A stretch of DNA of 64,000 nucleotides from Eledone cirrhosa. Its lineage: Eukaryota. The stretch is taken from assembly GCA_964016885.1 (NCBI GenBank), contig OZ024740.1:92070001-92134000 (forward strand). Direction: 5' to 3'. The notes under the pieces are model-generated. The model was given only the letters and a program-made list of their open reading frames with translations, was not told the DNA's origin and did not search any database. Below, in pieces: positions 11,878 through 56,628 of the stretch; within the stretch, counting starts at the first letter, position 1, and every line of letters begins with the position of its first letter. The translations under genes and the position numbers were made by a program.

Positions 11878-11878
<1 letters not shown>

Positions 11879-20327: not shown

Positions 20328-20362
<35 letters not shown>

Positions 20363-23614: not shown

Positions 23615-23807
23615 TGAATGTGTGTGTGTTGTTGTTGTTGATTGTGTTGTTGTTGATGTGTGTTGTTGTCTCCGTGTGTGTGTGTGTTATCGTTGTTGTG
23701 TGTGTTGTTATTGTTGTTTGTGTTTGCGTGTCTGTTGTTGTTGTATCTGGGTATGTTGCTGTTGTTGTTGTTGTTGATGTGTGTGTTGTTGTTATTGTTG
23801 TCTCCGT

Positions 23808-26458
23808 AAACAAGTAATGACAGTAGAACAGAAATCAGAGAAATAAGAGAAAGTAATAGGATTAAAAGGAGAAGGGAGACTAAGGACAAAGAGAATAACC
23901 AAGACGAACACACAGACACACAAAATAGGGTAGATAACAACATTGAGCCAGTGGAAAGAGACAGGAGTAATTATGAGAGACATAGAAACAACCATGAAGC
24001 TGAGGCTGCTGCTGTTGGTGGAAATAGAAACAACACAACTAACAATAGCACTAGTACACATAAAGCAGCAGCCTGGAACTTTCCGTTTTATAACCCCTCC
24101 GATAAATCATTCGACCTACGACGAGTCCACGCCACGACTTTGCCATTTAACAAACGCACGCAGTTGCCGTCGCAGGTCGATGAACAAACAGAAGCACAAT
24201 TTAGTATAGCTAAATCCGAACTTAGAAATATTATAGAACAGTATAGCAAGAAGCATAATAGAATAGAGGCCCAGCAACTGGGAGAAGAATCTGCAAATGG
24301 CTTGCGTAAGCTCATGCAGCGCTCGCGTAATGGAGAGATAGCATGCTTTCCAACAGACAAGTCTGGCAGAATGTCGGTTGACAGCCTGCCAAACTACATC
24401 CAGGCAATGCAACCCCACATCACTAACACAAGAGAGGTAACACCACAGGAGCATGAGGATAGAGAAAAAACCCTCAATGCCCATATGGTGATGTGGACAA
24501 ATATAATGCAGCCCAACAAAAGGACTGCCAACAACTTCCAGGCCTGGAACAATGACGTGCCGGCGTTGTATGGGCTTCGAAAAGACCATAAAACGGGCTG
24601 GGACTCTGTCGCGGGACCACCAACACGGCCAGTCTGTGGGGCTAACATTGCTAGTAACTACAGACTGTCCTACTTCCTCTCCCTGATCATACGCACCATC
24701 ATTGAGATGTCCCCAGATGTGTGTGACAGCACGGAGGACCTCCTCAGCAGAATCGGCGCGGGTAACCGATCTGGGGACCTAACAAACTGCATAATAGGCA
24801 GTATGGATGTTGTGTCTCTGTATCCATCTATTGACGTGGATTTTGCTGTGGAGAAATGCGTCGAAATGATCAGCGAGAGCAAGGTTGAGTTCCGTGGGAT
24901 TGATACCAGTGAGCTGGGACTTCTACTTAAGCTTGCCCATAGTAATAGTTACCTAGACACTTATGACCTTAGCAACCTGTGCCCTACAAGACCAGCAAGA
25001 GGCAGACCACCTACCATTACCTCAATGGCCAAGAAAACCCACACAGATAGATGGAACGGGTGGACCAGAGCCATACGGACACCCGAAAACCACGATGAAC
25101 TGAAGAAAATGATTGCACATGCGGTAGGGGCCAGCATAAAATTAACCCTTAAGGAACATATGTTCAAATTTAATGGTAAAACATATGCCCAAGAGGAAGG
25201 AGCAGACATTGGTGTTAGCATTGCAGGCGACATAGCTAACTTGTTCATGGTATGGTGGGACAGTAGACTTAAACAAAAACTTAATGAACAATTAGAAGAC
25301 AGCTTAACCCTGATAATGTACTCCCGCTACGTAGATGATATAAACATCGTAGTTAAGACACCCCCACTAAAGAACAGTCAGGAACCAGAGAAAAACAGAA
25401 TGGAAAGCATCCAGCAAATAGCAAACTCCATCCACCAGAGCATTAGAGTTACTATAGACTACCCAAGTAGACACCCCAACCATCGATTACCTGTACTAGA
25501 CACAGAGCTCTGGTTAGATACTATTAACAACCAAAAACAAATCCTCCATTCCCATTATGCCAAACCCATGACTTCCAAACATCTGATCCACCGAAACTCG
25601 GCCATTTCGGACCATACCAAAATCAACATACTGATTGCGGATTTGGTACGGGTGATGAGAAATGTGTCCCGCATGTGCAACCCCGAAGAACTAGAGAGAC
25701 ACATACAACACTTCATCCACCGTATGCAGTTCTCTGGCTACAATCAGAGAGATAGAATCAGAGTGTATAAAGGAGCCAGAACCAAATGGTAAAAAATGGT
25801 AAATAATGATATAAATGGGACCTGCCCCTTGTATAGGAGCAAATTTTGGAATAGAATAGAAAGAACTAAGAACAAGGCCAATAGAATAAACTCATGGTAT
25901 GATAGCAATAAATACCAGAGTGTAATGTTCATCAATACAACTCCTAGAGGCGAACTAGCCTACAAATTTAGAAGAGCCCTAAAGAAACATAATCTCAATA
26001 TTAAGATAGTAGAAAGACCTGGTACCTCCGTAAAAACACTTATTAGCAAGACATACCCGTTCCAAAGACCCTCATGTATAGATAAGAAATGTATAACCTG
26101 TAAAATAAGCCCCCATATTAACTGTAAAACTAGAAATGTAGTATATAGCATAAGATGTACTGAAGGACAATGTAGAAACAAAAATATAGTGTACATAGGT
26201 GAGACAGCTCGTAGTATAGGGGAACGAATAAATGAACACTGGCGAGACCTCCAAGATAGTAAAGAATCTTCTGTGCTCTACCAACATGCTAAGATAGAAC
26301 ACAGGGGTAAATTAGAGAGCATAGAAATAAAAATAGAATCCACACACAAGAAAGACGCAATGTTTAGGCAAATTACAGAGGCAGTAAGCATAAAAGAATT
26401 AAAACCAAAATTAAATAGAAAATACGAGTGGAACAGCAACATCACAATTTACAATTAA
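23808..26458 (+). pseudogene. Second copy of the same RT/GIY-YIG ORF, with a nonsense mutation
   Basis: ORFs 23951-25792 and 25796-26458 are in frame; GAA became TAA at 25790-25792; GAAIG became GADIG. Confidence 0.92.
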
Positions 26459-26755
26459 GGACAAAATGAAAACACACACACACATAGAACAAACAACTTA
26501 CAATTGAAAACACACACAAAATGAAAACACACACAAGACAAAATGAAAACACACACACACATAGAACAAACAACCAACCAACAACAAATAAATAAATAAA
26601 CAAACAAATATAAATAGAAAAATAGAAAAATGAACACAAACACACACAGACACCCGGATGTGGCGCATGCGCAAACTGAACACGCAACCCACACACAAAC
26701 AAAATGGCGTAGGATAGAAGAAAGGAAAGGCACAGAAACGAAGAAAGAAATCCCC

Positions 26756-26800
26756 AGTCACTGAAGAGGTCACAGAGTGTGTGACGAAAGAACTATGACT
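26756..26800 (+). ncRNA. Minimal type I hammerhead ribozyme in PLE 3' region
   Basis: agtca-CTGAAGA-g-GTCACAgagtgTGTGAC-GAAA-gaa-CTA-tgact. Confidence 0.8.
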
Positions 26801-26951
26801 ATATATATATAAACAACTATCTGGTTGTGGAACCAACCAACCAACCAGAAATTTATAAATTTGTAAATTTATAAATATATATTAAATTAAATTGAAGTGA
26901 AAGCAACTGGTGCGTGTGTTTCTTATTGGCAACATGACCCTCCCAAAGTAT

Positions 26952-27094
<143 letters not shown>

Positions 27095-27201: not shown

Positions 27202-27317
27202 TATATGATAGACGTAAATAAGAAAATTTAAAAAATAAAAAATCAACTTACTTACTAAAAAGTAAGTAAGTTGATTTTTAATTTTTAAAATTTTCTTATT
27301 TTACGTCTTTCATATAT
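27202..27317. repeat. Near-perfect AT-rich palindrome with TA-like flanks
   Basis: agacgtaaataagaaaatttaaaaaataaaaaatcaacttacttact-aaaa-agtaagtaagttgatttttaatttttaaaattttcttattttacgtct. Confidence 0.85.
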
Positions 27318-30137: not shown

Positions 30138-30182
30138 ATTTCGTTTCTGAATTTGTTTGGCAACATGACCCTCCCAAAGTAT

Positions 30183-30190
<8 letters not shown>
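30138..30190. mobile_element. 53-bp micro-insertion: the two 3' termini of the 20-27 kb PLE family fused head-to-head
   Basis: atttcgtttctgaatttgttt + ggcaacatgaccctcccaaagtataacaatat between (TA)n tracts. Confidence 0.88.
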
Positions 30191-31140: not shown

Positions 31141-31425
31141 ATAATAATATATATATATATATTATTATTACTATAATAATATATATATATATATAATAAT
31201 ACATATATATTTCGTTTCTGAATTTGTTTAGCAAGATTCTTTATCTGAAATCGTGTGTTGAAACCGATATTGTTATACTTTGGGAGGGTCATGTTGCCAA
31301 TAAGAAACACACGCACCAGTTGCTTTCACTTCAATTTAATTTATTATATATTTATAAATTTACAAATTTATAAATTTCTGGTTGGTTGGTTGGTTCCACA
31401 ACCAGATAGTTGTTTATATATATAT

Positions 31426-31470
31426 AGTCATAGTTCTTTCGTCACACACTCTGTGACCTCTTCAGTGACT
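31426..31470 (-). ncRNA. Minimal type I hammerhead ribozyme
   Basis: Same sequence as 20576-20620. Confidence 0.8.
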
Positions 31471-33085
31471 GGGGATTTCTTTCTTCGTTTCTGTGCCTTT
31501 CCTTTCTTCTATCCTACGCCATTTTGTTTGTGTGTGGGTTGCGTGCTCAGTATGCGCATGCGCCACATCCGGGTGTCTGTGTGTGTTTGTGTTCATTTTT
31601 CTACTTTTCTATTTATATTTTTCTATTTGTTTATTTATTTATTTATTTATTGTTGGTTGGTTGTTTGTTCTATGTGTGTGTGTGTTTTCATTTTGTCCTT
31701 AATTGTAAGTTGTGATGTTGCTGTTCCACTCATATTTTCTATTTAATTTTGGTTTTAATTCTTTTATGCTTACTGCCTCTGTAATTTGCCTAAACATTGC
31801 GTCTTTCTTGTGTGTGGATTCTATTTTTATTTCTATGCTCTCTAATTTACCCCTGTGTTCTATCTTAGCATGTTGGTAGAGCACAGATGATTCTTTATTA
31901 TCTTGGAGGTCTCGCCAGTGTTCATTTATTCGTTCCCCTATACTACGAGCTGTCTCACCTATGGACACTATATTTTTGTTTCTACATTGTCCTTCAGTAC
32001 ATCTTATGCTATATACTACATTTCTAGTTTTACAGTTAATATGGGGGCTTATTTTACAGGTTATACATTTCTTATCTATACATGAGCGTCTTTGGAACGG
32101 GTATGTCTTGCTAATAAGTGTGTTTACGGAGGTACCAGGTCTTTCTACTATCTTAATATTGAGATTATGTTTCTTTTGGAATAGAATAGAAAGAACTAGG
32201 AACAAGGCCAATAGAAAAAACTCATGGTATGATAGCAATAAATACCAGAGTGTAATGTTCATCAATACAACCCCTAGAGGCGAACTAGCCTACAAATTTA
32301 GAAGGGCCCTAAAGAAACATAATCTCAATATTAAGATAGTAGAAAGACCTGGTACCTCCTTAAAAACACTTATTAGCAAGACATACCCGTTCCAAAGACC
32401 CTCGTGTATAGATAAGAAATGTATAATCTGTAAAATAAGCCCCCATATTAACTGTAAAACTAGAAATGTAGTATATAGCATAAGATATACTGAAGGACAA
32501 TGTAGAAACAAAAATATAGTGTACATAGGTGAGACAGCTCGTAGTATAGGGGAACGAATAAATGAACACTGGCGAGACCTCCAAGATAATAAAGAATCAT
32601 CTGTGCTCTACCAACATGCTAAGATAGAACACAGGGGTAAATTAGAGAGCATAGAAATAAAAATAGAATCCACACACAAGAAAGACGCAATGTTTAGGCA
32701 AATTACAGAGGCAGTAAGCATAAAAGAATTAAAACCAAAATTAAATAGAAAATATGAGTGGAACAGCAACATCACAACTTACAATTAAGGACAAAATGAA
32801 AACACACACACACATAGAACAAACAACTTACAATTGAAAACACACACAACATGAAAACACACACAAGACAAAATGAAAACACACACACACATAGAACAAA
32901 CAACCAACCAACAATAAATAAATAAATAAATAAACAAATAGAAAAGTATAAATAGAAAAATGAACACAAACACACACAGACACCTGGATGTGGCGCATGC
33001 GCAAACTGAGCACACAACCCACACACAAACAAAATGGCGTAGGATAGAAGAAAGGAAAGGCACAGAAACGAAGAAAGAAATCCCC

Positions 33086-33130
33086 AGTCACTGAAGGGGT
33101 CACATAGTGTGTGACGAAAGAACTATGACT
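33086..33130 (+). ncRNA. Hammerhead copy with a core mutation (CTGAAGG)
   Basis: agtca-CTGAAGG-g-GTCACAtagtgTGTGAC-GAAA-gaa-CTA-tgact. Confidence 0.65.
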
Positions 33131-33348
33131 ATATATATATAAACAACTATCTGGTTGTGGAACCAACCAACCAACCAGAAATTTATAAATTTGTAAATTT
33201 ATAAATATATAATAAATTAAATTGAAGTGAAAGCAACTGGTGCGTGTGTTTCTTATTGGCAACATGACCCTCCCAAAGTATAACAATATATATATATATA
33301 TAATAATAATATACATATATATATAGTAATAATAGAAATAATAAGGTT

Positions 33349-33399
33349 AGTTTCAGAAGATCCCGTTAAGGGTGAAAGCAACGATTCTTTGCTTAAACT
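33349..33399 (+). ncRNA. Stand-alone type I hammerhead with full stem III and a U4A core change
   Basis: agttt-CAGAAGA-tCCCgttaaGGGt-GAAA-GCAAcgattctTTGC-TT-aaact in a ~90-bp island between (TA)n tracts. Confidence 0.65.
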
Positions 33400-33415
33400 T
33401 TAATCTGTTATGTTA

Positions 33416-33465
<50 letters not shown>

Positions 33466-33556
33466 CGGAGGAAATGTAGTAAGGAACCAGGTGGACCATA
33501 ACGCACCAAAGTACTCAATACTTAGGGTAGTAGAGTGGGTAATAGGAACGAGTAGG

Positions 33557-33652
33557 ACACCGACGGCTGAGCTCAAGCCGTTTCGACGGCTAATTCTGGA
33601 CTAAATGAAAATGTTTATCCTGGTATTTGACTAGCCAAGCTTTTCAAGGGGT
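33557..33652 (-). ncRNA. Hammerhead, U3-A8 variant, long stem II (stem I mismatch)
   Basis: Minus: acccc-TTGAAAA-gcttGGCTA...TAGCCgtc-GAAA-CGGCTtgagctcAGCCG-TC-ggtgt. Confidence 0.7.
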
Positions 33653-34759
33653 AATTCCATATATGGTAAAAGTGATTGTCACAAGGATTGGTCAAAAGTT
33701 TGTTGTTGAGACATAATAATTCTATCATGGCAATTTGTGGGGGGCGGGTAGCTGAACCTGCCAGTAGGATAAAGAGGGAGAGGGGGTGGATGAGACCAGT
33801 CATGCGTTGATAGTGCCGACTACAGTTTGGCATGAGGTCAAAGAAGATAATAGGGAGAGAGAAGAGGGGGAGTCGAGACAATAAATAAAACAATATGGGG
33901 TAAATATATAGAAAAAATACCGAGAATGTTAAAAAGCAATTAAATGTGAAAAAAAACAAAACAATTTATGGTTACTACGACCTAAATCTCTCACTGGTAC
34001 TGCTAGGCTAATGAAACGTTTACTAGGTGGGACGGAATTATAATGAGACCCTTTTAAGAGGTATAAGTAATAAACCGAGTATCTCTTACGGTGACGGGTC
34101 AACAAGTGAAGGTCCAAAATACTAAAGAAACTTCCACGAAATAATAAATAAGTAAATAAAGGCTTCTACCCCAGGCACAAGGACAGCAACCACCCAGTGC
34201 AAAAAAATAAACTAATACGAAATAATAATTCAGAATCCCGAAAAAGAATACTAATACTATCTCTAAGGGTGCCGCCACGATACAAAAATTCTAGTGCAAA
34301 CTACATAAATGCTCCTACGAAGTATATGCAAAATTTCATACGGAAAATTAATTCAGAATCCCCCCCCCCCCCAAGTACTGATATACGAGAAATTAAAGCA
34401 AATATACCACTAAGAAATATAGAAAGCAAGGAAAAGGGGCAGCGATCGGATAAAAAGGCTAGTATCTGGGGTCTAACACATCTGCTATATAAAGCGGAGT
34501 CGGCCAAATCTATCATAGAATAGGGGAAGGAGTGGGGGTACTGAGGCTACAAAGGACCGAGGGCTGCCTCGGGTGGGCGAGAAAATGAAAAGGACGACGA
34601 CAAAGAAAGAGGACTGGGGTTGATGGACTAGGGAGGCATGGGGGGAAGAAGGAAATATAGATGAAGCGATAAAAAAATGTAAAAGAAGATCTTACGTCTA
34701 CCTTTACAAGCAGGGGTTACCCATTACAAAATCGGCAAGTGGGGTGTTATAGACCTAGT

Positions 34760-37040
34760 CTATGGGTCATTACGGGGCTTGAGGGCGAGGGAACTCTTAC
34801 GCAATCTGTGTTTACATGCAGTAACCAGTTCTTCTTTCTTGTTTAGGAGTTGGTCCGTCGAAAACAACATTTGTAAAGTATCCTCCGAGCATAAATTGCA
34901 CGGACGGCGTCCTCCCGTGTAAGAGTTGGCTCTGGACAGTAAGTTCCAAGTGACATCATAGGTAATGCTGTTATCCTTGAGGTCCCATATGTGGCCCGAA
35001 AGTGTAGTGGCGTGACGCCGGCCCGGGTTTCGGAAGGTATGTCTGTGTTGGTATAGCCGTGTATTGAAGTCACATGCGGTTAATCCTATATAAGCTTTGT
35101 TGGAGGTGTCCGTCCTCACGTTGCACTGGTAGATCACATTACGATATCTGCATCTGTTGTCGAGAGGGCAAATGGATCCATCAGGACAGTTGCACCTCCT
35201 CGTCGGCTCTCCACTGCTATTTAGGTTATTTCTTCCATAGGGGTTGAGTTTTTTGTTGTTAGAGGAGACGATGTTTTGTGCAAAGTTTGGTGTGGTGCTG
35301 TAAGAGAGTTTGATGGTATTTTTGTTAATTATGTTGTGGTAGCGGTGTTGTAGTGGGAAGTGATTTTCAATGAGCCTAAAGAAGATTTTCCCGATAGGTG
35401 TTGTCACCACGGCGTTGTGGGGAGGATTGAACCATGTTACATTGCGTGAGCGGCGGTGTCGCCTGCTGGTTCCGCGAATGGAAGCTGGACAGTAGGATAT
35501 TTCCTCCCGGAAACTACTCCGCTTGAGGGCCTGGTTGTAATAAGGCGCATATTCCTCGAATATCTGCTCATTAGCTGACAAACGGGATATGCAGAGGCAG
35601 ATTTTTTTAACCAGGTTATTGGTGATATTCCTAGGATGGTTTGACCGGCGGTGGATGTAGTGCAGGTTGTCGTTAGGTTTCCTGTATGGGTAGTACAGAT
35701 CAAATCGAGGTCAAGGGTAAGGTCCAGGAAGTTTACTCGGGTCAGGGACGTTTGTAGGATTATTTTAAATCCCCAGTAGCGGAAGAAGCTGATTAATTGT
35801 TTACGGAACCGATCTGTACTACTGGGGTTGTACCCTTTAAGGGTAATGAGCCCATCATCACGGTACAATCCACCGCCGAATGCAGAAAACATATCGGTGA
35901 GTTTGGCTATAAGGAATAATCCTATAAGATCTGTGACCTCAGCCGAATCCGTCGCGCCCATGCTGACGTCGAAGGGTGAGTCGGGAGCTCTCTTTATCCA
36001 TTTGGAGTTGTCGAAGAGTAAGACGGTCTTCCTGGCGTGGAGGATGATGTTTCCTTCCTGGTCGGTGATGGGCACAAGTACTTCGGCGAAGTCCAAGGCA
36101 GCCGTAAGTAGCGGTAAGGTGATTGAAGCATAGTAACGCTCTATGTCAAACTTGATGAATTTAGTGTCTCGTTTTTCCTCCATATTGCTGAACCATGAGA
36201 TTACTTCCTCGGTGTTGACCCATAGGATAAGTCTGGCGTGTTGCTTAACTTTTGGTATAACGCGGTCTAGGATTTTTTGGCTGATTCTCCCTATGTCGGA
36301 CTTCGTTGGGTTTATAAGTTTACGGTCGAAATCGGATTTGTGGTCCTTCAGTGTGATGTAAGGTGTCCGTGGGTCTAGGGGTTCCGTGCGGTCGGCGACC
36401 CCGAGGCTGGAGGTAATGTGTTGTCCATCTCGAATTATGTCCTTGATGCATGAGGGTTAGCCTTTTTATAGGTGGAGTTTAGGCTTCTCCTGATCAGTAC
36501 GTGGCATCTGTCGGGGTTGACAAAGTAGAGGTTACCAGTTTTATCCGAGTGCACCATGATGTCATTGGTGTTATCATATTCTGTTAAGTTGCTACGGAGT
36601 TTTTGTAGGAATCGGTTGTGTCTGGGATTGAATTTAATGTTCTTGACCAGTTGGAAAAGGTCATTCTCGAAGAGTGAGAGCATAGGGTTCGGAGGGGGAG
36701 ATTTGTAGGTAATAAATCCGAATCTCTCCTTGGCACCGAAGTCCTGATTGTCGCAATATCTGTCGTAGAAAAAAGTTCTCCATCTAAGTCTTTTCGCAAA
36801 TAGATCAATTTTTTGCGTGAGCATCCGAAGGTAAAGTTTTTTCGGTGCGACTGGGATGTTCTTGGTAGAGAAGTCGATGTTGTGTTTTCGAATGGTGCGG
36901 GTGAAAGAACTTGCGCTTAGCGGAAAAGTCGGGATACGGCGTGGTAGGTGCGGAAAGTGCTCTACTACGGGAATCGGATCTAGATAACGGAGGAAATGTA
37001 GTAAGGAACCAGGTGGACCATAACGCACCAAAGTACTCAC
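34760..37040 (-). pseudogene. Naiad-like RT + GIY-YIG ORF broken by two frameshifts (~36435 and ~35700) and probably a third near 35610
   Basis: DFSTKNIP...KRLRWRTFFY...FENDL, SDKTGNLY, ITLKDHK, FIKFDIERYYASI, FDVSMGATDSAE, GLYRDDGL, VNFLDLTLDL, NVTWFNPP, CNC...CPL...C, VIYQC...YIGLT, CNLC, LLNKK.ELV..CKH. Confidence 0.92.
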
Positions 37041-37078
37041 TACTTAGGGTAGTAGAGTGGGTAATAGGAACGAGTAGG

Positions 37079-37174
37079 ACCCCGACGGCTGAGCTCAAGC
37101 CGTTTCGACGGCTAATTCTGGACTAAATGAACATTTTTATACTGGTATTTGAATAGCCGAGCTTCTCAAGGGGT
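37079..37174 (-). ncRNA. Hammerhead, U3-A8 variant, long stem II, intact copy in the 5' pseudo-LTR
   Basis: Minus: acccc-TTGAGAA-gctCGGCTAttc...gaatTAGCCGtc-GAAA-CGGCTtgagctcAGCCG-TC-ggggt. Confidence 0.78.
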
Positions 37175-37675
37175 AATTCCATATATGGTAAAAGTGATTG
37201 TCACAAGGATTGGTCAAAAGTTTGTTGTTGAGACATAATAATTCTATCATGGCAATTTGTGTAGGGAAGGGGTAGCTGAACCTGCCAGTAGGAGAAAGAT
37301 GGAGAAGGGTCCCACCTAGTAAACATTTCTTTAGCCTAGCAGTACCAGTGAGAGACTTAGGTCGTAGTAACCAGAACTTGTTTATTTTTTTTACATTTAA
37401 TTGCTTTTTAACACTCTCGGTATTTTTCTATATATTTACCCCATATTGTTTACTTATTGTCTCGACTTCCCTCCCTAGTATCTTCTTTGACCTCATGTCC
37501 AGCTGTAGTCGGCACTATCAACGCATGACTGGGTCTCCTCCACCCTCTCTCCCTATTTCTCCTACTGGCAGGTTCAGTTACCCCCCCCCACAAATTGCCA
37601 TGATAGAAATATTATGTCTCAACAACAAACTTTTGACCAATCCTTGTGACAATCACTTTTACCAAATATGGAATT

Positions 37676-37771
37676 ACCCCTTGAGAAGCTCGGCTATTCA
37701 AATACCAGGATATACATTTTCATTTAGTCCAGAATTAGCCGTCGAATCCGCTTGAGCTCAGCCGTCGGGGT
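37676..37771 (+). ncRNA. Damaged copy of the same hammerhead (GAAAC changed to GAATC)
   Basis: acccc-TTGAGAA-gctcggcta...tagccgtc-GAAT-ccgcttgagctcagccg-TC-ggggt. Confidence 0.6.
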
Positions 37772-37783
37772 CCTACTCGTTCC

Positions 37784-37807
<24 letters not shown>

Positions 37808-37816
<9 letters not shown>

Positions 37817-38814
37817 ATATGTATGTGATGAAACACAGATACCAACACATCTGTATATATATTGCAAAAGAAAATTTAACCAGATTGAAGTATACTAATT
37901 ATTATACTACAGTTTGTCCATATCGATTTAAAATAATAAATCAACAAAGACGAACTGCATTGCCAAAAGGCTATGGTGTTTAGACACATTTAAATATCAA
38001 GATCAAACCTGTTCCGTAGATAAGTTTAAACTTTAAAATCCAAATATGTTTCGAGATAAATAAGTATAGGAATATCATGTCCTGCTCTCCTCAGTAAACA
38101 TCCAGGGACAAATTGATATGCTTCACTTCTAAATAATTTAAAAGACTGCGTGACGCACATGGTTTAACAGTATCTAGCTAGTCTCATAACCGTACTGCTA
38201 GAAATAACAGTCGTATATATGAGGCGGCTTTCAGCTCAGACTAGGAGCAATTATATTAATAAGGTAATGAATTCTTTTACAATGGAATTAGCTCGAAGGA
38301 GGAAAATACCCACTGAGCCGTGTATAAACTAATATGTATGTGATGAAACACAGATACCAACACATCTGTATATATATTGCAAAAGAAAATTTAGCCAGAT
38401 TGAAGTATACTAATTATTATACTACAGTTTGTCCATATCGATTTAAAATAATAAATCAACAAAGACGAACAGCATTGCCAATGATATTCCTACACTTATT
38501 TATCTCGAAACATATTTGGATTTTAAAGTTTAAACTTATCTACGGAACAGGTTTGATTTTGAAATTTAAATGTGTCTAAACATCATAGCCTTTTGGCAAT
38601 GCAGTTCGTCTTTGTTGATTTATTATTTTAAATCGATATGGACAAACTGTAGTATAATAATTAGTATACTTCAATCGGGCTAAATTTCCTTTTGCAATAT
38701 ATATACAGATGTGTTGGTATCTGTGTTTCATCACATACATATTAGTTTATACACGGCTCAGTGGGTATTTTCCTCCTTCGAGCTAATTCCATTGTAAAAG
38801 AATTCATTACCTTA

Positions 38815-38821
<7 letters not shown>
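37808..38821. mobile_element. Second retrozyme-like family: 515-bp non-coding unit, 1.3 copies on minus plus an inverted partial copy
   Basis: tataaactaatatg at 37808 and 38323; 38481-38821 is inverted; (TA)n on both sides; HHR-like motif inside. Confidence 0.82.
38024..38099 (-). ncRNA. Type I hammerhead-like motif with enlarged stem II and stem III loops
   Basis: Minus: gttta-CTGAGGA-GAGcagga...tcct...CTC-GAAA-C(16 nt)-GTT-taaac. Confidence 0.6.
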
Positions 38822-38896
<75 letters not shown>

Positions 38897-38900
<4 letters not shown>

Positions 38901-39121
38901 AACGAGTAGGACCCCGACGGCTGAGCTCAAGCCGTTTCGACGGCTAATTCTGGACTAAATAAAAATGTATATCCTGGTATTTGAATAGCCGTCGGGGTCT
39001 TACTCGTTCCTATATATATATATATATATATATAGGAACGTGTAGGACCCCGACGGCTAATTCTGGACTAAATGGAAATGTATATCCTGGTATTTGAATA
39101 GCCGTCGGGGTCCTACTCGTT

Positions 39122-39125
<4 letters not shown>
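38897..39125. mobile_element. Two adjacent MITE-like mini-palindromes (116 and 93 bp) derived from the Naiad terminus
   Basis: Each runs taggaacg..taggaccccgacggct ... agccgtcggggtc..actcgttccta; they are separated and flanked by (TA)n. Confidence 0.88.
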
Positions 39126-39165
<40 letters not shown>

Positions 39166-39170
<5 letters not shown>

Positions 39171-39484
39171 ACGTGTAGGACCCCGACGGCTGAGCTCAAG
39201 CGGTTTCGACGGCTAATTCTGGACTCATTATTCGAAACATATTTGGATGTTAACGTTTAAACCTCCCTACGGAACAGGTGGTTTGATTTTGAAATTTAAA
39301 TTTGTCCAAGCACTATGGCCATTGCCAATATGATTTGTTTTTATTGATTTATTATCTTAAATCGAGACAGGCAAAATGTATTATTATTATTAGTATATTT
39401 CAATCTAGCTAACTTGGTCATTTACAATACAAACATGAATATGTTGGTATTTGTGTTTATCAAATATATTAATTTATATTAACT

Positions 39485-39487
<3 letters not shown>
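39166..39487. mobile_element. Chimeric insertion: Naiad terminus (minus) fused to a diverged 515-family arm (plus)
   Basis: 39166-39225 matches 37065-37124; 39228-39487 aligns with 38500-38750 at lower identity. Confidence 0.78.
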
Positions 39488-39541
<54 letters not shown>

Positions 39542-39684
39542 CCAAATGTTAAACAAGGTTCATTGATTATTCAATGAATACAGTTTTACAATAGATAAAA
39601 GCACTCAAGAGTGGCGTTTTTTGGGTTTGTTAATATTATTCAAAATATTAATAAATGGTTACATTCACATAAACAATATATATG

Positions 39685-39746
39685 TTTTATTATATATATT
39701 TAGGAGGTACAGTGTTGTTTTTATTAGTACGTCCTCATCAGATAAC
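39685..39746 (-). ncRNA. Hammerhead-like motif with GAAA replaced by TAAA
   Basis: Minus: ttat-CTGATGA-GGAcGTAC...GTACcTCC-TAAA-tatat-ATA-ataa. Confidence 0.55.
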
Positions 39747-42700
39747 ATACATAAATTGATGCATGAATACCTCAACTGTGCTGATGGTTCAATTCCAGTC
39801 TTGGCAGTGATGTATTACAAGAAAACTTAATATTTATATACCACAAGTGAAAGTGAGACAAATTAAATATGATAAGTAGCGAGATATAAGTATTAGCAGT
39901 GGGCGAGTAGGAGAAAGTATAGAATAAATAAATAAATGAATAAATAATCACATAAGTACATAAATGTTAAATATTTAAATATGTAAATATCTGTGTTAGA
40001 GAAAAAGATAAGAGAGAGAGAGATAAAGAGAGCGATAGAGATAGAGAGAGAGAGAGTGTGTGTGTGTTAAATAGAAAGGGAAAATGATGAAAAGATGAAA
40101 ATAAAAAGAAAGGAGAGGGAGATATAGATGATAGAATATATAACTGTATAAGGAAAAGAGATACAGAAGAGAGAAAGAAGAAAGGGACATGATGTGTGAC
40201 CGTATTTTTTCAAATATTAAGTCAGGTAAAAGCGATCAATTAAATACCTTGAAATGTTCATCTATTGTATTTGGTTACATTTAAGCAAATTATACTATTA
40301 TATTATATCAACATTCAACAATATAAAATATGTTTCAATGATCATCAGGAGCATAGTTAAATTAATAAATATATTCAATATTTAGTTATAAAATTCAAAG
40401 TCTGAAATATTATTAAGTATCAATGATGTTTATAAATATTTATAAATATAGTAAATAAGTATGAGAGTATTTATCATAACTTAATTGCATATCAGCATCT
40501 GTATATGCATTTTATATAATGTTTAGAATTATAAATATTATAAACAATACTATTTAAATCAATAGTTGTCAATTACATATAGGATTAATTATTAGTTATA
40601 TTTACTCTTGAAAGTATTATTATTTCGATTTAACCAAATCTTATTGTATTCAATACTATAGGTCAAGTTAAATACAGATTATTAATCAATTTGGATAAAA
40701 TGAAAGATTATACACGATAAATGTAAACAAAAGATCCGTGCAACATATCTAAACGTTTAAACGAACTAAAGGGTTTGAAAATCTGAAGGTATTTCAGATT
40801 TCAAGTATAGAAAATTTAAGACATAAGAAATGAGGATTTAAATGCCACACTAAAGTTATTTAGTCAATCAAGAGATTAAAGAACCGATATGCATTTCCTA
40901 AGGTGAGGTAAAACATTTTACATAATGCTAATAAAAACAAGAATTATTAATAAAATTCAATATCTTTTCTCACTCAGTCAATGTTTTTTCTTAAATTTAT
41001 ATGATGCTTGAAATGTTTTTGTAGATTTATGGAGGCAATTTGAAAACAATTCCTTTTTTTTATTAATTAAATTACCGTAATTAGCAATTATTAATAGAAT
41101 CTCAAAATTGCAAAGATTGCAGTTAGGTGAAACGGAATGTTTCCGATAGGATTCTGGGTTTCAAAGCTTAACCCAAGAAATTAAGTATTTCATATTTTTC
41201 TCTTTTAAAGACCATATTAATTGTGATAATGAAGTAGAACATTTTTTATCTGGATTAGAAAAAGTATGTTTATGATTGGAAAATCTAAGTTTAAAGTTAG
41301 ATGAAGTTGCACCTATGTAATAAGTAATATTATTATTTGTTTTAATGGTACTTTTATATACTAAATACTTATCAAGGCAGTTTTTTTGTATTCAGATGTC
41401 CTTCTACAGTTACAGTTCAATTTCAACCTATTTCTATAATCTAAACTGTTCATATTATCATTGATAATATTTGTAGTTGTTCTACAATATGTGTTTAAAT
41501 TATTGTTATTCTCAATAACTATTGTATTATTATTATTACTATTGTTATTATCGCTAATTATATGTTGGTTTGAATTAAGAATTCTGCTAAAAATGTTTAC
41601 AATATTTTGAGCCATATTCATAGTTGTTGAGTACGAAAGTTTAACAGTGTGTCTATTGAATGTAGAATAATTCTTATGTGTTCTAGAAAAACATATATCC
41701 CAGGTGTTGAAATATAAATGTGCTAAAGGGGTTTTAATAGCTAAAGATGCTGGTGGGGCAAACCAAATAATAGATCTAGTTCTAATTCTTTTCACCGATT
41801 TATTCTCCAAATTGTTATTTTTATTTATATTTATATGTTCATTTTTACAGTCAGTTTTATTTATATTATTCCTATTATTATGAATATTTTGTTTATAATT
41901 ACTATTACTATTTTCTACATATTCAATATTATATCTATATCCTGTTTTATGTAACGCTTCATTATAATATCATGCTTTACTATCAGACATGGATTTGTTA
42001 GCAGATAATCTGGTTATACGTTGTTGCACACTATTGACTATTGCATTGTTAACACATATAGGGTGATTAGATAAGAACTAACGTAATTTAGGTTTTCATT
42101 GGGATTATGGAATGGGTAATGTAGGCCTGAGTTTAAATTAAGGGTTACGTCTAAAAAGTTAACTATTTTACTATTATTTTCCACTTTTAATTTTAGGTCT
42201 TAATTTTTAAAGAATTCTATAATTACTTTCTTTACTCTATTTAATTCTCTATTGCTATGTTTAACTACAGTAAATAATATGTCATTTCTAAATAAACCAC
42301 CGCTAATCTCCGGCAGTTATTTTTTTATCATATTAAGGTTGAACATTCCCAGAAGATCGGTAGCTTGCGCGGATCGGACGATCCCATCATAATTTCGAAA
42401 TTGTTCTGTCTATCCGAACGAGTCCAAAAATCATTATTAAAGCCAATCAAGGTTCGCCTAACCGTTAAAATAATCTTAATCTCCTCACTAGATAGATCAG
42501 TGTGTTTATATGCGTATGAAAGTGGCTTATTCAAAAGGTTAGGAGTTATTGACGTGTAGTAACTCGCTATGTCCATTTGAATGAAATTATAATGTTTCTT
42601 ATTTTCAATGTTCTTAAACAAATCTATTACTTCACTAGTGCCCTTCCATAAGTTAAGCCTTCACCTCAATTTTATTGTCGGCAAAATCCGATCTATTATG

Positions 42701-43533
42701 TTTTTACTAATTATTCCAATGTCTGACTTCGAAGGTGCGATAAGTCAAACAGGCAAGTCCTCTTCGAAATGGCCTTAATGGTCTTTAAAATTTATCCGCG
42801 GTTACCTTGGTATGTAAGGTTCAGTTCTCCTTTCAACTCCGAGATTGGTGATTATTTGAAAAGTATCATTATTTATAACCACTAGACCTTCAGCCGGCGA
42901 CTTTCTATAATTCTCTCTCAATTCCTTTAAAATTAAGTCCTTATATTATGTTTTTTATTTCCCATATAATTTGTGGTTTTGTCTGATTACACTCATATTT
43001 TATTTACTTTTTTTATATCAATAATTTTTTCTCTCAGACTTCTAAGGTATTCCTGGTCTTTATATGGATTTTTCTTAAATGTTATCCTCCTTAATATATT
43101 ACAAATTTCATTTTCAAAATTTTCCAGGAGTTTGTTGTACGGAGAATTTTTCCTGGATTTAAAGATATTTTCGAAATTGTTCTTGTTTTTCCTATTTGTT
43201 TCTTTTTTCTCAAAATGAAAAGCACGCAAACTCAGTCTTCTTATGAAGGGGTTTGTTTGTCCAATAAGATTTCTCATGTATTCCTCTTTAGATGGTAGAG
43301 ATGTAGAAAACCTAAATAATTCCATCATTTATTAATTAATTGATAATCTATTGCAACATAAGCGCTCTATCACCAGGGAGCTAAATATGACCAAATATTA
43401 AACAAGGTTCATTGATTATTCAATGAATACAGTTTTACAATATATTAAAATCACTCAACTGGGACGTTCTCTGGAGTTATTAATATTATTCAAAATATTA
43501 ATAAATGGATACATTCACGTAATCAAAATATAT

Positions 43534-43597
43534 ATTTTATTACATATATTTAGGAGGTACTGTGTTGTTTTTTCAGTAAGCTCTCATCAGATAAAAT
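43534..43597 (-). ncRNA. Hammerhead-like motif with GAAA replaced by TAAA (second pseudo-LTR)
   Basis: Minus: attttat-CTGATGA-gagctTACTG...CAGTAcctcc-TAAA-tatat-GTA-ataaaat. Confidence 0.55.
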
Positions 43598-45495
43598 GCA
43601 TACGTTGATGCATGACATACCTCAACTGTGCTGATGGTTCAATTCCAGTCTTGGCAGTGATTTATATCAGAAAAATTCTGTTAGACAGAAAAATTCGGAT
43701 AGAGAGACACATTTCGACATTACTATGGGATCGTCCGATTCCGCCCAAGTTACCGATCTTCTGAGAATTTTCATCCTTAATATTATAAATAGAAAACTGC
43801 CGGAGATTACCGGTGGTTTATATATAGATGACATATTATGTACTGTAGTTAAACATAGCAATAGTGAATTAAATAGAGTAAAGAAAGTAATTATAGAATT
43901 CTTTTAAAATTACGACCTAAAATTAGAAGTAGAAAATAATAGGAAAATAGTTAACTTTTTAGACGTAACCCTTAATTTAAACTCAGGCCTATATTACCCA
44001 TTCCATAAGCTCAATGAAAACCTAAATTACGTTAGTCCTTATTCTAATCATCCTATACGTATTAAATATGCAATAGTCAATAGTGTTCAACAACGTATAA
44101 CCAGATTATCTGCTAACAAATCCATGGTTGATAGTAAAGCAGGATATTATAATGAAGCGTTACGTAAAGAAGGATATAAAAATAATATTGAATATGTAGA
44201 AAATAATAATAGTAATTATAAACAAAATATGCATAATAATAGGAATAATATAAATAAAACTGACTGTAAAAATAAAAATATAAATAAAAATAAAAATAAC
44301 GATTTGGAGAATAAATGGGTGAAAAGAATTAGAACTAGATCTATTATTTAGTATGCCCCACCAGCATCTTTAGCTATTAAAACCCCTTTAGAACATTTAT
44401 TTTTCAAAGCCTGGGATAATTGTTTCCCTAGAGCACATAAGTATTATTCTATCTTCAATAGACACACGTTTAAACATTCGTACTCAACAACTATGAATAT
44501 GGCTCAAAATATTGCAACAATTATTAGCATAATTCTAAATTCAAACCAACATATTATTAGAGATAATAACTATAGTAATATATAATTACTAATAATAATA
44601 CAATAGTGATTGAGAATAACAATAATTTAAACACATATTGTAGAACAACTACAAATATTATCAATGATAATATGAACAGTTTAGATCATAGAAATAGCAT
44701 GAAATTGAACTGTAACTGTAGAAGGAAATCTAAATGCCCTGTACAAAATAACTGCCTTGATAAGAATTTAGTATATAAATGTACCATTAAAACAAATAAT
44801 AATATTACTTATAACTAGATAGGTTCAACTTCATCGAACTTTAAACTTAGAGAATTGTGTGTGTGTGTGTCTGTGTATGTATGGATGTATGTCACTGTAC
44901 GCGTGTGCATGTGTGTGTGTGTGTGTATATGTATGTATGTGTGTGTGTATGTGTGTGTGTGTATGTCCGTGTATGTGTGTGTGTATGTGTGTGTGTGAGA
45001 GAGAGTCTGTGGATGGACCAGTATTATTGTGGTACTGGTAAAAATGGCGTACCTTATTCGATATTTTCAGTCATTTGCAAAAACTATTCTCTCAAAAGAT
45101 CATCAATAACAACATCAATAATAAAAGAGGTGATATGATGTATAATATTGTCATAACACCAAGGCGTGTGTGAGTCCAGATTGTACGTATTACAATGGGG
45201 AATCCATTACGCCCTGCCGTATGGGATAATCGTGTACAAATATGTATGTGTCCATCAATGTGCAATACATGTGTGCGTATGTGTATGTGTGCGTGTCGGC
45301 ACGTGTATATCTATAAACATCATAAGGTATGCGAATTTGTGTATATTTGTGTTGCACCATAGACCATGTGTGTCATTGTGTTTATATGTGGATAGAAATG
45401 TATGCCTACATACATGTCCATCCACATATAAACACATATAAACATGTATGCTGATGTAGGTATGTATGTCAACGTGTGTATGGTGAGGGTTCGTC

Positions 45496-48351: not shown

Positions 48352-49239
<888 letters not shown>

Positions 49240-52436: not shown

Positions 52437-52479
<43 letters not shown>

Positions 52480-52484
52480 CTAAT

Positions 52485-52672
52485 AATAATTGTTTCTATT
52501 TTAGGCACAAGGCCAGCAATAACCCAGTGCATTACTGGTACTTGATTTTATCGACCCCGTAAGGATGAAAGGCAAAGTCAACCTCGGCGGGATTTGAACT
52601 CAGATCGTAAAGGGACGTAACTATGCTGGAAAGCATGGCGTCCGACCCTCTACCGATACTGCCAATCGACCG
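52485..52672 (-). mobile_element. Full-length tRNA-derived SINE
   Basis: Minus: A-box-like TGGCAGTATCGG, B-box GAGTTCAAATCCC, body gccgaggttgactttgcctttcatcc, (ATT)n tail. Confidence 0.88.
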
Positions 52673-52860
52673 TATATAGTTATGTATAGTTATGTATATA
52701 GTTATGTATATAATATAAACAACTATAAACAGGGAGGTCAGTAATTTTTTATTACCTTATTACCAGTAAGAGAGATAGCTCAATGTATGAACGTCAGTTG
52801 TTTTACAGTGCAGTTAAATAAATAAATTATACAATTATGAAAGTTGTGTTCAAATCATTT

Positions 52861-52912
52861 AATAGCTGACAATCGTGTCTTCCAAACTCTCGTTTGGAAT
52901 CATCGGAACATT
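52861..52912 (-). ncRNA. Damaged hammerhead copy (CCGATGA / GACA)
   Basis: Inverted partner of 56493-56544. Confidence 0.55.
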
Positions 52913-55900
52913 ATCAATGTTTGCACATATAATTAACCTCCTATTAAACTGAACAATAATATAGATACATATAAATTAATGTTGTGAGCAACAGTTTCGT
53001 ATTTACAGGGTGGATTGGATGTGACATATATTTTACGAGAATTGTATTCAAGATCAAATTCAAATCAAAATTCAAATTAAAATCAAAAACACGGAGTGGA
53101 ATACATGCAACAGTTAAAACAAGGGAATAGTCCATATATTAAAGAATCATTGAGGAAGCAGTTTTGAGAAAGGAAGAGTGCGATAACAATTCATATGCAG
53201 GCGTGTAGATAGTGTGGGCTGCGTAAGTCATATACATGAGAAGGAGACAACCAAAGCTATTATGCATATATAGATGAATAAATACTGCAGCTGAAGCAAA
53301 TATGTTAATGTATTAGAGTCTATGGTGGGTGTTGAATGTTGATGGTGTTCAAATTAATATGTGTTCAGAAACATACAGTTTTTGCAGACTTTTCCATGAC
53401 ATATGTTGAATTAAATTTTAGTTAATGTTTATATTGAGTGTTTTAAGTTAGTTAGAGCAATTCATTGTAAATTAGTCTTAATGAATTCATATTCATAGAC
53501 AATATTTGATCATTCGTTAAATTTTCAATCGTTAATTTCCGGAAGTGAATAAGGGGAGTTAATGCGTAAGGGGAGGTAACTAGCTAATTAAGTTCAATCC
53601 AGTTATTATACTTTGTTCTAATACACAATATATTGTGATACCATTGGATCTCTGTTACATAACCCTGTATATTTATGCCTGGTTTGAAATACAGTGTATT
53701 CTACTATCATACATTAAAGGTTTCTTTAGATTGTTATCTATTCATTATTGGACAAGGTATATGTTATGAAGGATTATTTAGCTGTAAATATGTCATAATA
53801 GATATACTATTTGTGTAATAATATAATCCCTAATATAGAATGATATTACATTTTATATTTAATTATAAGTGTATATATACTTTATTATTATTATGTTGTG
53901 TAATTTAAGCATTTAATTATACAATTACAAATGCGCACATAGTTTATCATCACACCTTACATTAAATGTCTCTAGATACCAAGTGCTAAATATCCATTGC
54001 TGTATAAGATATAATTAATCTATTGAAGTTATATCAATGTGGTAAAACTATGTCTAATTCTAACTGTTATTGCAGAGCATAAGGTTATAGATGAATAGGA
54101 GTTGTGTAGCGGAAAGAGTTGGTCGAGGGGTTTGTGGTTGCTGCTAAGTCCTAGATGTGTAGTGTTAATGGTGGTGGGGAATTCAAATCTGACATTGTTG
54201 TATACTAACAGCTAGGTTTACAGTTATGGAACGAGTGTCGGTACCAGTGTTGGCACGAGGAAAATGTTTCTGACTTTCTATTAAGGAGGTCTAGTTTCGA
54301 AAATATTATAGTATGTGTCTCCAGAAGGCAGAGATTACACAATTTATTCGGTGGTTTATACGATGAGGCCCTACCTACTACTTTCCATTGCAGTTTAATT
54401 TGTATATTCCTAAAAGAAAATAGAAGGAGAACTAATGCATTCTTCCATCCCCCTTTCAATCTAAACGTCTATACCAACTTGCCTAAGGCTTTTTTCTCAA
54501 TCTTAGAAAGAAACTTCCCGACCGGCCACAAGTACCATAGCCTTATCAATAAAAATACAATTAAAACATCGTACTCCGCCACATCTAAGATAGCATACCA
54601 TATAGCTAGTAGTATTAAATGGAAGATTAATAACTATTTACAACTAATTAAAACACAACAGGAGGTAAACTTAGTACCTGTAAACAATAGTAGTAATAAT
54701 AGTAATAATGATAATAGCACTAATGAAATCAATAATAATACAAATGATAGGCATCATTACCCTAGGGCTACCCCTAGCAACCTGAAATCTTCACAACATA
54801 GGAACCTGCATGCTAACACCCAGAATAAATGTAACTGTAGAACTAATAGAACATGCACCCTCAACGCAAACAACTCTTCTAAAACATATATAGGTTCTAC
54901 TTCGAACAACTTCAAGACGAGATACAACTCGCCCCTCCACTATTTCAAAACACGCGATCTAGCCAGCTCCACGTCTTTATCTAGCTACATACACTCTCTG
55001 AAAACTAGGAATAGACCATTTACACTACAATGTGAAGTAGTAGGTAGGGCCTCATCGTATAAACCACCGAATAAATTTGGTAATCGTTGCCTTCTGGAGA
55101 CCCATACTACAATCCTTTCGAAACTAGACATCCTTAATAGAAAGTCAGAAACATTTTCCTCGTGCCAACACCGGTACCGACACTCGTTCCATAACTTTAA
55201 ACCTAGCTGTTAGTATACAACAATGTCAGATTTGAATTCCCCACCACCATTAACACTACACATCTCGGACTTAGCAGCACTCACAACCATACACCCCTCT
55301 ATCAACTCTTTCCGCTACACAACTCCTATTCATCTATACCGTATGCACTGCAATAACAGTCAGCATTAGACATCGAGTTACCATCTTGTAACTACAATAG
55401 ATTAATCATAAGTTATACAGTAATGGATATTTGGCACTTGGTATGTAGAGACATTTAATGTAATGTGTGATGATAAACTATGTGTGCACTTGTAATTGTA
55501 TAATTAAATGCTTAAATTACACAACATAATAATAATAAAGTATATATACACATATAATTAAATATAAAATGTCATAGCATTTTATATTAGGGATTATATT
55601 ATTACACAAATAGCATATCTATTATGACATATTAACAGCTGTATAATCCTTCAAAACATATACCTTGTACAGTAATGAATAGATAACAATCTAAAGAAAC
55701 CTTTAATGTATGATAGTAGAATGCACTGTATTTCAAACCAGGCATAAATATACAGGGTTATGTAACAGAGATCCAATGGTATCACAATATATTGTGTATT
55801 GGAACAAAGAATAATAACTGAATTGAACTTAATTAGCTAGTTACATCCCCTTACGCATTAGCTCCCCTTATTCACTTCGGAAAATTAACGATTGAAAACT

Positions 55901-56492
55901 TAACAGTTGATCAAATATTGTCTATGAATATGAATTCATTAAGACTAATTTACAATCCATTGTTCTAACTAACTTAAAACATTCAATATAAACATTATCT
56001 AAAATTTATTACAACGTATATCATGGAAAAGTCTGCAAAATCTGTATGTTTCTGAACACACATTAATTCGAAAACCATCAACATTCAACACCCACCATAG
56101 ACTCTTATACATTAACATATTTGCTTCAACTGCAATATTTATTCATGTATATATGTATAATAGCTTTGCTTTTTTCCTTCTCATGTATATGACTTATGCA
56201 GTAACACTATCCACACGCCTGCATGTCAATTGTTATCGCACTCTCCCTTTCTCAAAACTGCTTCCTCAATGCCTCTTTAATATTTGGACTATTCCCTTGC
56301 TTTAACTGTTGCATGTATTCCACTCCGTGTTTTTGATTTTAATTTTAATTTTGATTTGAATACAATTCTCGTGAAATATATGTCACATCCATTCCAACCT
56401 GTAAATACGAAACTTGCTCACAACATCAATTTATATGTATCTATATTAGTGTTCAGTTGAATAGGAGGTTAATTATATGTGCAAGTATTGAT

Positions 56493-56544
56493 AATGCTCT
56501 GATGAATCCAAACGAGAGTTTGGAAGAAACGATTGTCAGATATT
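56493..56544 (+). ncRNA. Minimal type I hammerhead ribozyme
   Basis: aatgct-CTGATGA-aTCCAAACgagaGTTTGGAa-GAAA-cgatt-GTC-agatatt; GNRA-capped stem II; stem I imperfect in this copy. Confidence 0.78.
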
Positions 56545-56577
56545 AAATGATTTGAACACAAGTTTCATAATTGTATA

Positions 56578-56628
<51 letters not shown>

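What the first reader, a model, noticed from the sequence alone, without database searches (positions are those of the whole stretch)
39166..39487. Two-family chimeric insertion: Naiad terminus joined head-to-head to a retrozyme-like arm
Seen: between two (TA)n tracts, 60 bp of the Naiad 3' end (minus) is fused without intervening TA to ~260 bp of a diverged 515-family sequence (plus), both with 3' ends outward. Inference: the two arms of an insertion can come from two different RNA molecules. This argues against single-template fold-back and suggests the non-coding family uses the same machinery as the Naiad.
Basis: partly seen in the sequence, partly recalled or inferred. Interest (0 to 1): 0.72.

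Follow-up and report, generated by a model that had tools for sequence, protein, structure and literature searches.

The report
Two-family fused Penelope insertion arms
The ends of two unrelated ribozyme-bearing jumping elements are joined back to back inside a crowded TA-repeat nest; this is slightly more likely a later fusion of two neighbouring insertions than one insertion copied from two different RNAs, which would reveal how Penelope-type elements build their mirror-image ends.

Summary
The junction is in the sequence: 39168-39225 (minus) is the 3' end of a Penelope-like element, joined with a 1-nt overlap to 39226-39486 (plus), an arm of a hammerhead family 78% like the neighbouring 515-nt unit. 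Two corrections: the element is Hydra-clade, not Naiad, and the right arm is not old (relatives match it exactly over 86 nt). No read or contig bridged the junction. Both arms begin at the edge of their hammerhead's loop II, and same-family fold-backs occur near the left arm's end, as expected of primary cDNA ends; this favours two RNAs in one event. Against: both arms end at their family's 'short' site, whereas 9 of 9 ordinary two-armed units here are same-family and long+short; the site is a nest of at least six palindromic or TA-bounded inserts; a 3-nt microhomology fits loss of an inner arm. My odds: later fusion 0.50, one event from two RNAs 0.38, artefact 0.07. Two-RNA insertions are known for LINE-1; my searches found none for Penelope elements. 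The scan noted two-armed retrozymes many times on other DNA of this genome; no listed note described a cross-family pair.

The parts
39124..39167 (.). (TA)n tract left of the left arm
39168..39225 (-). Arm F: short-site 3' end of the Hydra-clade PLE; holds only the 3' half of its hammerhead (stem II 3' strand, GAAA at 39207-39204, stem III, GUC at 39187-39185, stem I 3' strand). Three differences from the majority of neighbours (39169, 39174, 39202); 5' end at the edge of loop II
39225..39227 (.). Head-to-head junction; 1-nt overlap (T39225) between the two family sequences; TCA (39225-39227) would be a 3-nt microhomology if F once had the partner arm seen in 7 contigs
39226..39486 (+). Arm R: member of a high-copy sister family of the 515-nt retrozyme-like unit; holds the 3' half of its hammerhead (GAAA 39234-39237, long stem III, GUC 39305-39307); starts 2-3 nt before the 3' strand of stem II; ends at the position homologous to the 515 family's short site
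39487..39540 (.). (TA)n tract right of arm R
33465..37783 (-). Context: Hydra-clade PLE, frameshifted ORF (37043-34760, RT then GIY-YIG), pLTR copies 33465-33785 and 36978-37309, inverted plus-strand arm 37309-37783; long end left, short end right (80 nt apart); hammerhead with a U3-A8 core at 37174-37079
37812..38817 (.). Context: two-armed insertion of the 515-nt non-coding unit (minus 38481-37812, 1.3 units; plus 38481-38817); complete type I hammerhead at 38100-37977 (minus); short end left, long end right (70 nt apart)
38899..39010 (.). Context: unit D|D2, same-family Hydra fold-back with two short ends, joined at a 5-nt microhomology
39035..39123 (.). Context: unit E|E2, inferred product of one local tandem duplication (unit 38938-39050, period 113, bounded by an 8-nt direct repeat) of the second half of D|D2 plus the start of F
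39541..39828 (-). Context: 3' end of an older PLE (88% like 43390-43677; decayed hammerhead core) that closes the nest on the right

Best explanation
The junction joins the 3' end of a Hydra-clade Penelope-like retrotransposon to a hammerhead-bearing arm of a different, likely non-coding family, and it most likely arose by fusion of two neighbouring insertions in one TA nest rather than as one insertion. Shown: both outer ends are family-specific 3' ends in (TA)n; the arms overlap by 1 nt; at least six inserts crowd 33.4-39.8 kb. Inferred steps: (1) F first landed as an ordinary same-family palindrome, short arm F plus a long inner arm, centred at 39225. (2) The TA tract on its right was cut again by a Penelope endonuclease; the far end was extended from an R-family RNA at its short site, and the cDNA stopped at hammerhead loop II. 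(3) The near end was resected, the F palindrome folded into a hairpin, and end joining at the hairpin tip (TCA microhomology) removed the inner arm. A variant with the same outcome is a centre-to-centre deletion between two palindromic neighbours.
For: Ends: 9 of 9 ordinary TA-bounded two-armed units in the window are same-family with one long and one short end (offsets 47-80 nt measured in 7; 2 too short to measure, matched to relatives' ends). F|R is short+short, as expected if the lost inner arms were the long ones. R's end lies 3-5 nt before the sequence that follows the 515 short end (loose end in X1). Only 1 of 14 head-to-head junctions in the window is cross-family (1 of 13 if E is a copy of D). 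In run X4, 7 contigs follow the window through 39227 and then continue as an inverted same-family arm (agreement 0.62), so TCA would be a 3-nt microhomology with R. The nest has been rearranged at DNA level at least once (period-113 duplication) and is full of hairpins (DNA fold z = -14). R has, if anything, fewer private changes than F (3-4 of about 226 well-covered sites against 3 of 58; not tested for significance). Microhomology-mediated deletion of Penelope copies is reported (PMC3846280 passages).
Against: The model needs a break within 2 nt of the old palindrome's centre. Both 5' ends lie at the same structural place (edge of loop II), which one event from two stalled cDNAs explains in one step. 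The TCA match is only 2 nt beyond the overlap, and the 39227 class is visible only because those 2 nt match (ascertainment). A 1-nt overlap is also seen at ordinary primary junctions here (U8, U9). The ages are compatible with one event. The adjacent D|D2 is also short+short, so the long+short rule has a same-family exception in this nest. One apparent sign that F is a DNA copy of its neighbours fell away: T39174, shared with E, is explained by the duplication, and G39202, shared with the 37783 arm (family share 0.45-0.83%), is then a single coincidence.
Confidence: 0.5

Rival explanations
1. One repair event, two RNAs. A Penelope endonuclease cut both strands of a TA tract; one end was primed on a Hydra RNA and the other on an R-family RNA, each at its short site; both cDNAs stopped at hammerhead loop II and were end-joined. 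A variant: the left end was primed, snapped back (D|D2, which regenerates a TA end), was primed again (F), and was then joined to R.
For: Both 5' ends lie at the 3' edge of loop II (R-family stem II inferred from loose ends). Inverted same-family arms appear as loose ends at 39221 (10 contigs) and 39227 (7 contigs) in X4, and in the consensus behind 39219 in 2 of 3 RAD runs, so F ends near a recurrent arm terminus. Of the 4 retrozyme arms at U2 and U9, 3 start in or within 18 nt of the hammerhead. Blunt 1-nt junction; similar ages. A purified Poseidon protein cuts and extends both strands, starts at two internal RNA sites and is predicted to be a dimer (PMC11167929). LINE-1 gave nine two-RNA insertions, with opposite-orientation ones attributed to two ends extended on different templates (PMC11702581 section 7).
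Against: Short+short against 9 of 9 long+short ordinary units. One case in a nest where fusion is easy. The loose-end table is cut (82 rows not shown), only stops between about 39206 and 39227 can be seen, agreements are 0.41-0.62, and most RAD reads behind 39219 are probably library ligation products; the 'hot spot' is therefore not normalised. A recurrent stop at R's 5' end was not seen for the R family. No evidence of cross-mobilisation between PLE types was found in a rotifer (PMC3846280 conclusions passage; this concerns EN+ versus EN- types).
Confidence: 0.38
2. Assembly or read chimera: the join was made by the assembler or by a chimeric long read in a tract of palindromes and TA repeats.
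For: No contig or read bridged the junction in 7 runs. Palindromic TA nests are hard to assemble (PMC8557442 passage).
Against: The runs are not the source individual (share of words 0.35 or less) and contigs show presence only. Each copy in the nest has its own variants and TA lengths. The join falls at structured positions in both arms.
Confidence: 0.07
3. Template switch or RNA-level chimera: one reverse transcriptase moved from the Hydra RNA to an antisense R-family transcript, or copied a read-through RNA that already held both.
For: Self-priming or antisense templates were proposed for head-to-head Penelope structures (PMC3846280 discussion passage).
Against: It needs the second template to end exactly at R's own family 3' site followed by TA; the overlap is only 1 nt; no second copy of the chimera was seen in the window or among listed contigs.
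Confidence: 0.05

Closest known systems
Hydra-clade Penelope-like elements, e.g. Hydra-1_Obim (Craig et al. 2021, PMC8557442; section 11, passages and supplement excerpts read)
   Same: C-terminal GIY-YIG, RW[KR], DKT, CxCx5C, no CCHH, hammerhead in the pLTR, (TA)n target, inverted 5'-truncated arm with a tail. By eye the window's RT follows the printed Hydra alignment blocks.
   Different: Hammerhead core reads UUGANAA rather than CUGANGA; tail 80 nt rather than 30-40; here the inverted partner arm is from another family.
Naiad PLEs (PMC8557442)
   Same: (TA)n target, tandem and inverted structures.
   Different: Naiads have an N-terminal endonuclease and lack canonical hammerheads; this element has a C-terminal one and a hammerhead. 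Not a Naiad.
Animal non-LTR retrozymes (Cervera and de la Pena 2020, PMC7229834, passages; Li, Clavereau and Pollet 2026, bioRxiv 10.64898/2026.07.22.740005, parts 1-3 of 5 read)
   Same: Non-coding unit of about 500 nt with a type I hammerhead, in head-to-tail repeat (shown for the 515 unit); proposed to be mobilised by PLE enzymes.
   Different: In the text searched or read, neither paper describes head-to-head arms or cross-family junctions ('inverted' and 'chimeric': 0 hits in PMC7229834). Arm R holds half a ribozyme and its full unit was not recovered.
LINE-1 two-transcript insertions and twin priming (PMC11702581, sections 6-7 and passages read)
   Same: Two reverse-transcribed sequences from different RNAs, in opposite orientation, joined with little microhomology.
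   Different: Seen de novo in cells with induced LINE-1, so a single event is certain there; different enzyme, poly(A) priming and target-site duplications; here the TA target hides any duplication.
Poseidon PAc in vitro mechanism (Frangieh et al. 2024, PMC11167929, parts 1-2 of 4 read)
   Same: Two internal start sites on the RNA define the tail; both DNA strands are cut and extended in AT-rich DNA.
   Different: One RNA species was used; whether the two strands can use different RNAs was not addressed in the parts read.

Membership tests
Naiad PLE | GIY-YIG endonuclease N-terminal to RT | tested here: not met
   RT in 36456-35437, GIY-YIG downstream in 35710-34760 on the minus strand
Naiad PLE | No canonical hammerhead; DKA motif | tested here: not met
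   Hammerhead at 37174-37079; motif is DKT
Hydra PLE | C-terminal GIY-YIG without CCHH | tested here: met
   VIY..YIG present, CCHH pattern not matched
Hydra PLE | RWK-type motif, DKT, CxCx5C linker, CxxC and CxH | tested here: met
   RWR, DKT, CNCPDGSIC, CNLC, CKH; definition
Hydra PLE | Hammerhead in pLTR and (TA)n target | tested here: met
   the core is a U3-A8 variant (that this pair is a working compensatory variant is recalled, not from a call)
Hydra PLE | Placement in the Hydra clade by RT phylogeny | not tested
   Reference sequences were seen only in a supplement; 438 homologues found carry no clade names
Non-LTR retrozyme (515 unit) | Non-coding tandem unit with a type I hammerhead | tested here: met
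   1.3 head-to-tail units, complete hammerhead 38100-37977; the Li et al. criterion of two complete ribozymes is not met at this locus
Non-LTR retrozyme (arm R family) | Complete unit, tandem, no ORF | tested here: inconclusive
   Only 261 nt plus about 30 nt of loose ends on each side were seen; homologous to the 515 unit
Non-LTR retrozyme | Self-cleavage and circular RNA | not testable with these tools
   No RNA run was laid
Two-RNA single-event insertion | Both arms absent together from the pre-insertion allele | not testable with these tools
   No genome or orthologous locus held; collection scans empty
Two-RNA single-event insertion | Arms of equal age | tested here: inconclusive
   3/58 against 3-4/about 226 private sites; compatible with equal age and with R being younger
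Ordinary two-armed PLE insertion | One long and one short 3' end | tested here: not met
   F and R both end at short sites; 9 of 9 ordinary units are long+short

The most novel reading that the evidence does not exclude
Penelope-type insertion can prime the two ends of one break on two different RNAs, here an autonomous Hydra element and a non-coding retrozyme, both cDNAs stalling at hammerhead loop II. Head-to-head arms would then be two independent cDNAs, not a self-primed fold-back; short+short ends would mark events with two independent RNA-protein complexes; and cross-family pairs would map which enzyme carries which retrozyme.
Probability: 0.38. Interest if true: 0.65.

Novelty: new variant of a known kind. 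Interest (0 to 1): 0.4.

Why it matters
How Penelope-like elements form their inverted arms is an open question (named as such in PMC8557442; self-priming proposed in PMC3846280; two-strand extension shown in vitro in PMC11167929). A cross-family pair made in one event cannot be self-primed and would tie a retrozyme directly to Penelope machinery, which so far rests on co-occurrence and sequence similarity (bioRxiv 10.64898/2026.07.22.740005). One junction in a nest cannot settle this, but it defines a cheap genome-wide test. If it is a later fusion, it shows an ordinary way in which palindromic insertions decay in TA nests.

Tried and rejected
No whole genome was held, so the census of cross-family junctions could be done only in the window. 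Rfam: no match at gathering score in the window; E-value hits in 33000-40000 were TA-hairpin look-alikes. Junction in reads: none of 4 contig runs and 3 RAD runs bridged it; five fully laid reads and six reads with the locus letter at 39249 in X6 can be explained by chance read ends and family variation, so I did not count them. Summed contig depth was not used as a copy number. Exact-motif scans of metagenome (2), viral (1) and prokaryote genome (1) collections found nothing. Sequence look-ups in earlier findings found no look-alike for R or for the Hydra 3' end. Pfam gave nothing useful for the Hydra pieces. 'R is an old 515 copy' was rejected. 'F is a DNA copy of its neighbours' was first favoured (P about 0.005-0.07 for two shared variants), then dropped when the period-113 duplication explained one of them. 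Minimum-energy folds of the ribozyme regions were not better than shuffles, except weakly for the 515 hammerhead (z -1.97); the ribozyme calls rest on the motif and stem scan. Eight literature searches were answered; none listed a paper on cross-family head-to-head Penelope insertions; subscription papers are outside the library, and bioRxiv supplements were not seen.

Full report
Observation. The stretch 39168-39486 lies between (TA)n tracts at 39124-39167 and 39487-39540. Its first 58 bases (arm F) match, on the minus strand, the 3' end of the large element at 33465-37783 and four nearby fragments at 93-95%. The rest (arm R) matches the 515-nt unit at 37812-38822 on the plus strand at 78% over about 256 nt, far above shuffles (225 against at most 39 in 500). 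Both 3' ends point outward and no TA separates the arms. The physical description is right.

The left family is Hydra, not Naiad. The element's frameshifted ORF runs RT then GIY-YIG, with RWR, DKT, CxCx5C, CxxC and CxH motifs and no CCHH match. Its pLTR carries a type I hammerhead with a UUGANAA core (that U3-A8 is a working swap of C3-G8 is recalled). These are the Hydra features in PMC8557442 section 11; Naiads have an N-terminal endonuclease and no canonical hammerhead. No tree was built. F is the 3' half of that hammerhead plus 17 nt. Earlier notes call the genome octopus-like; I did not test that.

The right arm is not an aged 515 copy. In public contigs, 39326-39411 is matched with no difference at depth 226-265 in three runs of one sample, and 39394-39487 with one difference in a run of another organism. 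Sites where nearly all relatives differ from R are 39249 (53 of 54, 49 of 58, 34 of 36 RAD reads), 39254 (45 of 54, 41 of 58, 27 of 36) and 39316; 39262-39300 is poorly covered. The R-family sequence upstream of the arm, seen as loose ends, shows a one-base overlap at T39225 and suggests a stem II whose 3' strand begins 2-3 nt after R's first base. R is therefore also the 3' half of a hammerhead, starting at the edge of loop II, as F does.

The junction was not verified. No contig or read in seven runs bridged it. The contig runs hold at most 35% of the local words, and the RAD reads end at AATT 39215-39218. This is no evidence either way.

Context. From 33.4 to 39.8 kb one TA region holds a Hydra element, a two-armed 515 insertion, D|D2, E|E2, F|R and the 3' end of an older PLE. 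E|E2 is explained by one tandem duplication of 38938-39050 between 8-nt direct repeats (period 113); this accounts at once for E's 24-nt gap, its junction identical to D's, and the variant T39174 that it shares with F. So [D|D2](TA)[F|R] was the earlier state (inference). The other shared variant, G39202 (family share 0.45-0.83%), is then a lone coincidence or a gene conversion.

Census in the window. I picked 14 TA-bounded segments by eye from 37 TA tracts. Nine are ordinary two-armed units from five families; all nine are same-family with one long and one short 3' end (offsets 47-80 nt measured in seven, two matched to relatives' ends). Two of the 14 did not qualify (48386-49138 is not two-armed; 52477-56580 lacks TA at its left arm). 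D|D2, E|E2 and F|R are short+short. Counting two older same-family inversions, 1 of 14 head-to-head junctions is cross-family. Overlaps at ordinary junctions run from about 0 to 6 nt, with one of about 16, so F|R's 1 nt does not discriminate. The long+short rule agrees with earlier notes on this genome (unchecked AI notes) and with two internal start sites shown in vitro (PMC11167929).

Evidence on the inner ends. In run X4, 10 contigs leave the window after 39221 and 7 after 39227 into an inverted copy of the same Hydra sequence; the consensus behind 39219 in two of three RAD runs does the same. So same-family fold-backs occur within a few bases of F's 5' end. The table is cut, agreements are 0.41-0.62, and stops elsewhere are largely invisible, so this is a hint of a recurrent stop, not a measured peak. 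It makes a random deletion breakpoint in F unlikely. It fits two stalled cDNAs joined in one event. It fits equally an older F palindrome opened at its centre, in which case TCA at 39225-39227 is a 3-nt microhomology with R.

Weighing. Fusion of neighbours (0.50) explains short+short, the nest, the possible microhomology and R being, if anything, younger; it needs a break at a hairpin tip. One event from two RNAs (0.38) explains both loop II ends in one step and, in its iterative form, the adjacent D|D2; it has a LINE-1 precedent (nine two-transcript insertions in a set of 99 L1 and 235 pseudogene insertions; PMC11702581) but breaks the long+short rule. Artefact 0.07, template switch 0.05. These odds are judgement, not computation.

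Novelty. All parts are known kinds, and PLE mobilisation of retrozymes is already proposed. A cross-family head-to-head pair was not listed in eight literature searches nor in the earlier-finding listings I saw (each shows at most 8 of up to 382 matches). As a single unverified junction in a nest it is a lead; its worth is the census that it suggests, which would bear on self-priming (PMC3846280) against two-end priming.

Noticed in passing
window 37174-37079 (-), 33647-33550 (-): The Hydra element's hammerhead has a UUGANAA core (N = G or A in the two copies) and a stem II with a long loop; repeated AGCCG/CGGCT motifs in its stems seed the local fold-back and duplication.
   Followed up: partly
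window 38899-39010: D|D2 is a same-family short+short fold-back at a 5-nt microhomology; it looks like a cDNA snap-back that would regenerate a TA end.
   Followed up: partly
window 6152, 38481, 39225: 5' ends of retrozyme and Hydra arms often fall in or just after the hammerhead (8 and 18 nt after the cleavage site, or in loop II), hinting at RNA breaks or RT stalls there.
   Followed up: partly
window 20361-26955, 31210-33285, 11873-12081, 30140-30186: Four two-armed insertions of one Neptune-like PLE, from 47 bp to 6.6 kb, all with the long end left and the short end right; one arm has a 922-codon open frame and a hammerhead at 20615 (-).
   Followed up: partly
window 5124-7311: Two-armed array of a 470-nt hammerhead unit (2.2 and 2.5 copies, ends 70 nt apart).
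   Followed up: partly
window 14602-14692: 91-bp two-armed mini-insertion of a diverged Hydra subfamily (short end left, long tail right).
   Followed up: partly
window 3445-4609: Two-armed array of a diverged unit of about 300 nt with a hammerhead-like core at 4329 (-); ends 47 nt apart.
   Followed up: no
window 48386-49138: One-orientation tandem (about 460 nt, 78% between copies) with a decayed hammerhead; the first copy starts right after a TA tract just before GAAAC.
   Followed up: no
window 9248-9359, 11233-11365, 16383-16552, 52482-52670, 59146-59321: Dispersed repeat of about 190 nt, 74-94% identical, SINE-like; one copy interrupts an old PLE.
   Followed up: no
window 39541-44851: Old Hydra-like PLE with pLTR copies at 39541-39828 and 43390-43677 (88%) and an inverted arm 43694-44851.
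   Followed up: partly
window 27202-27316: 115-bp palindrome (90%) right of the Neptune-like element, not assigned to a family.
   Followed up: no
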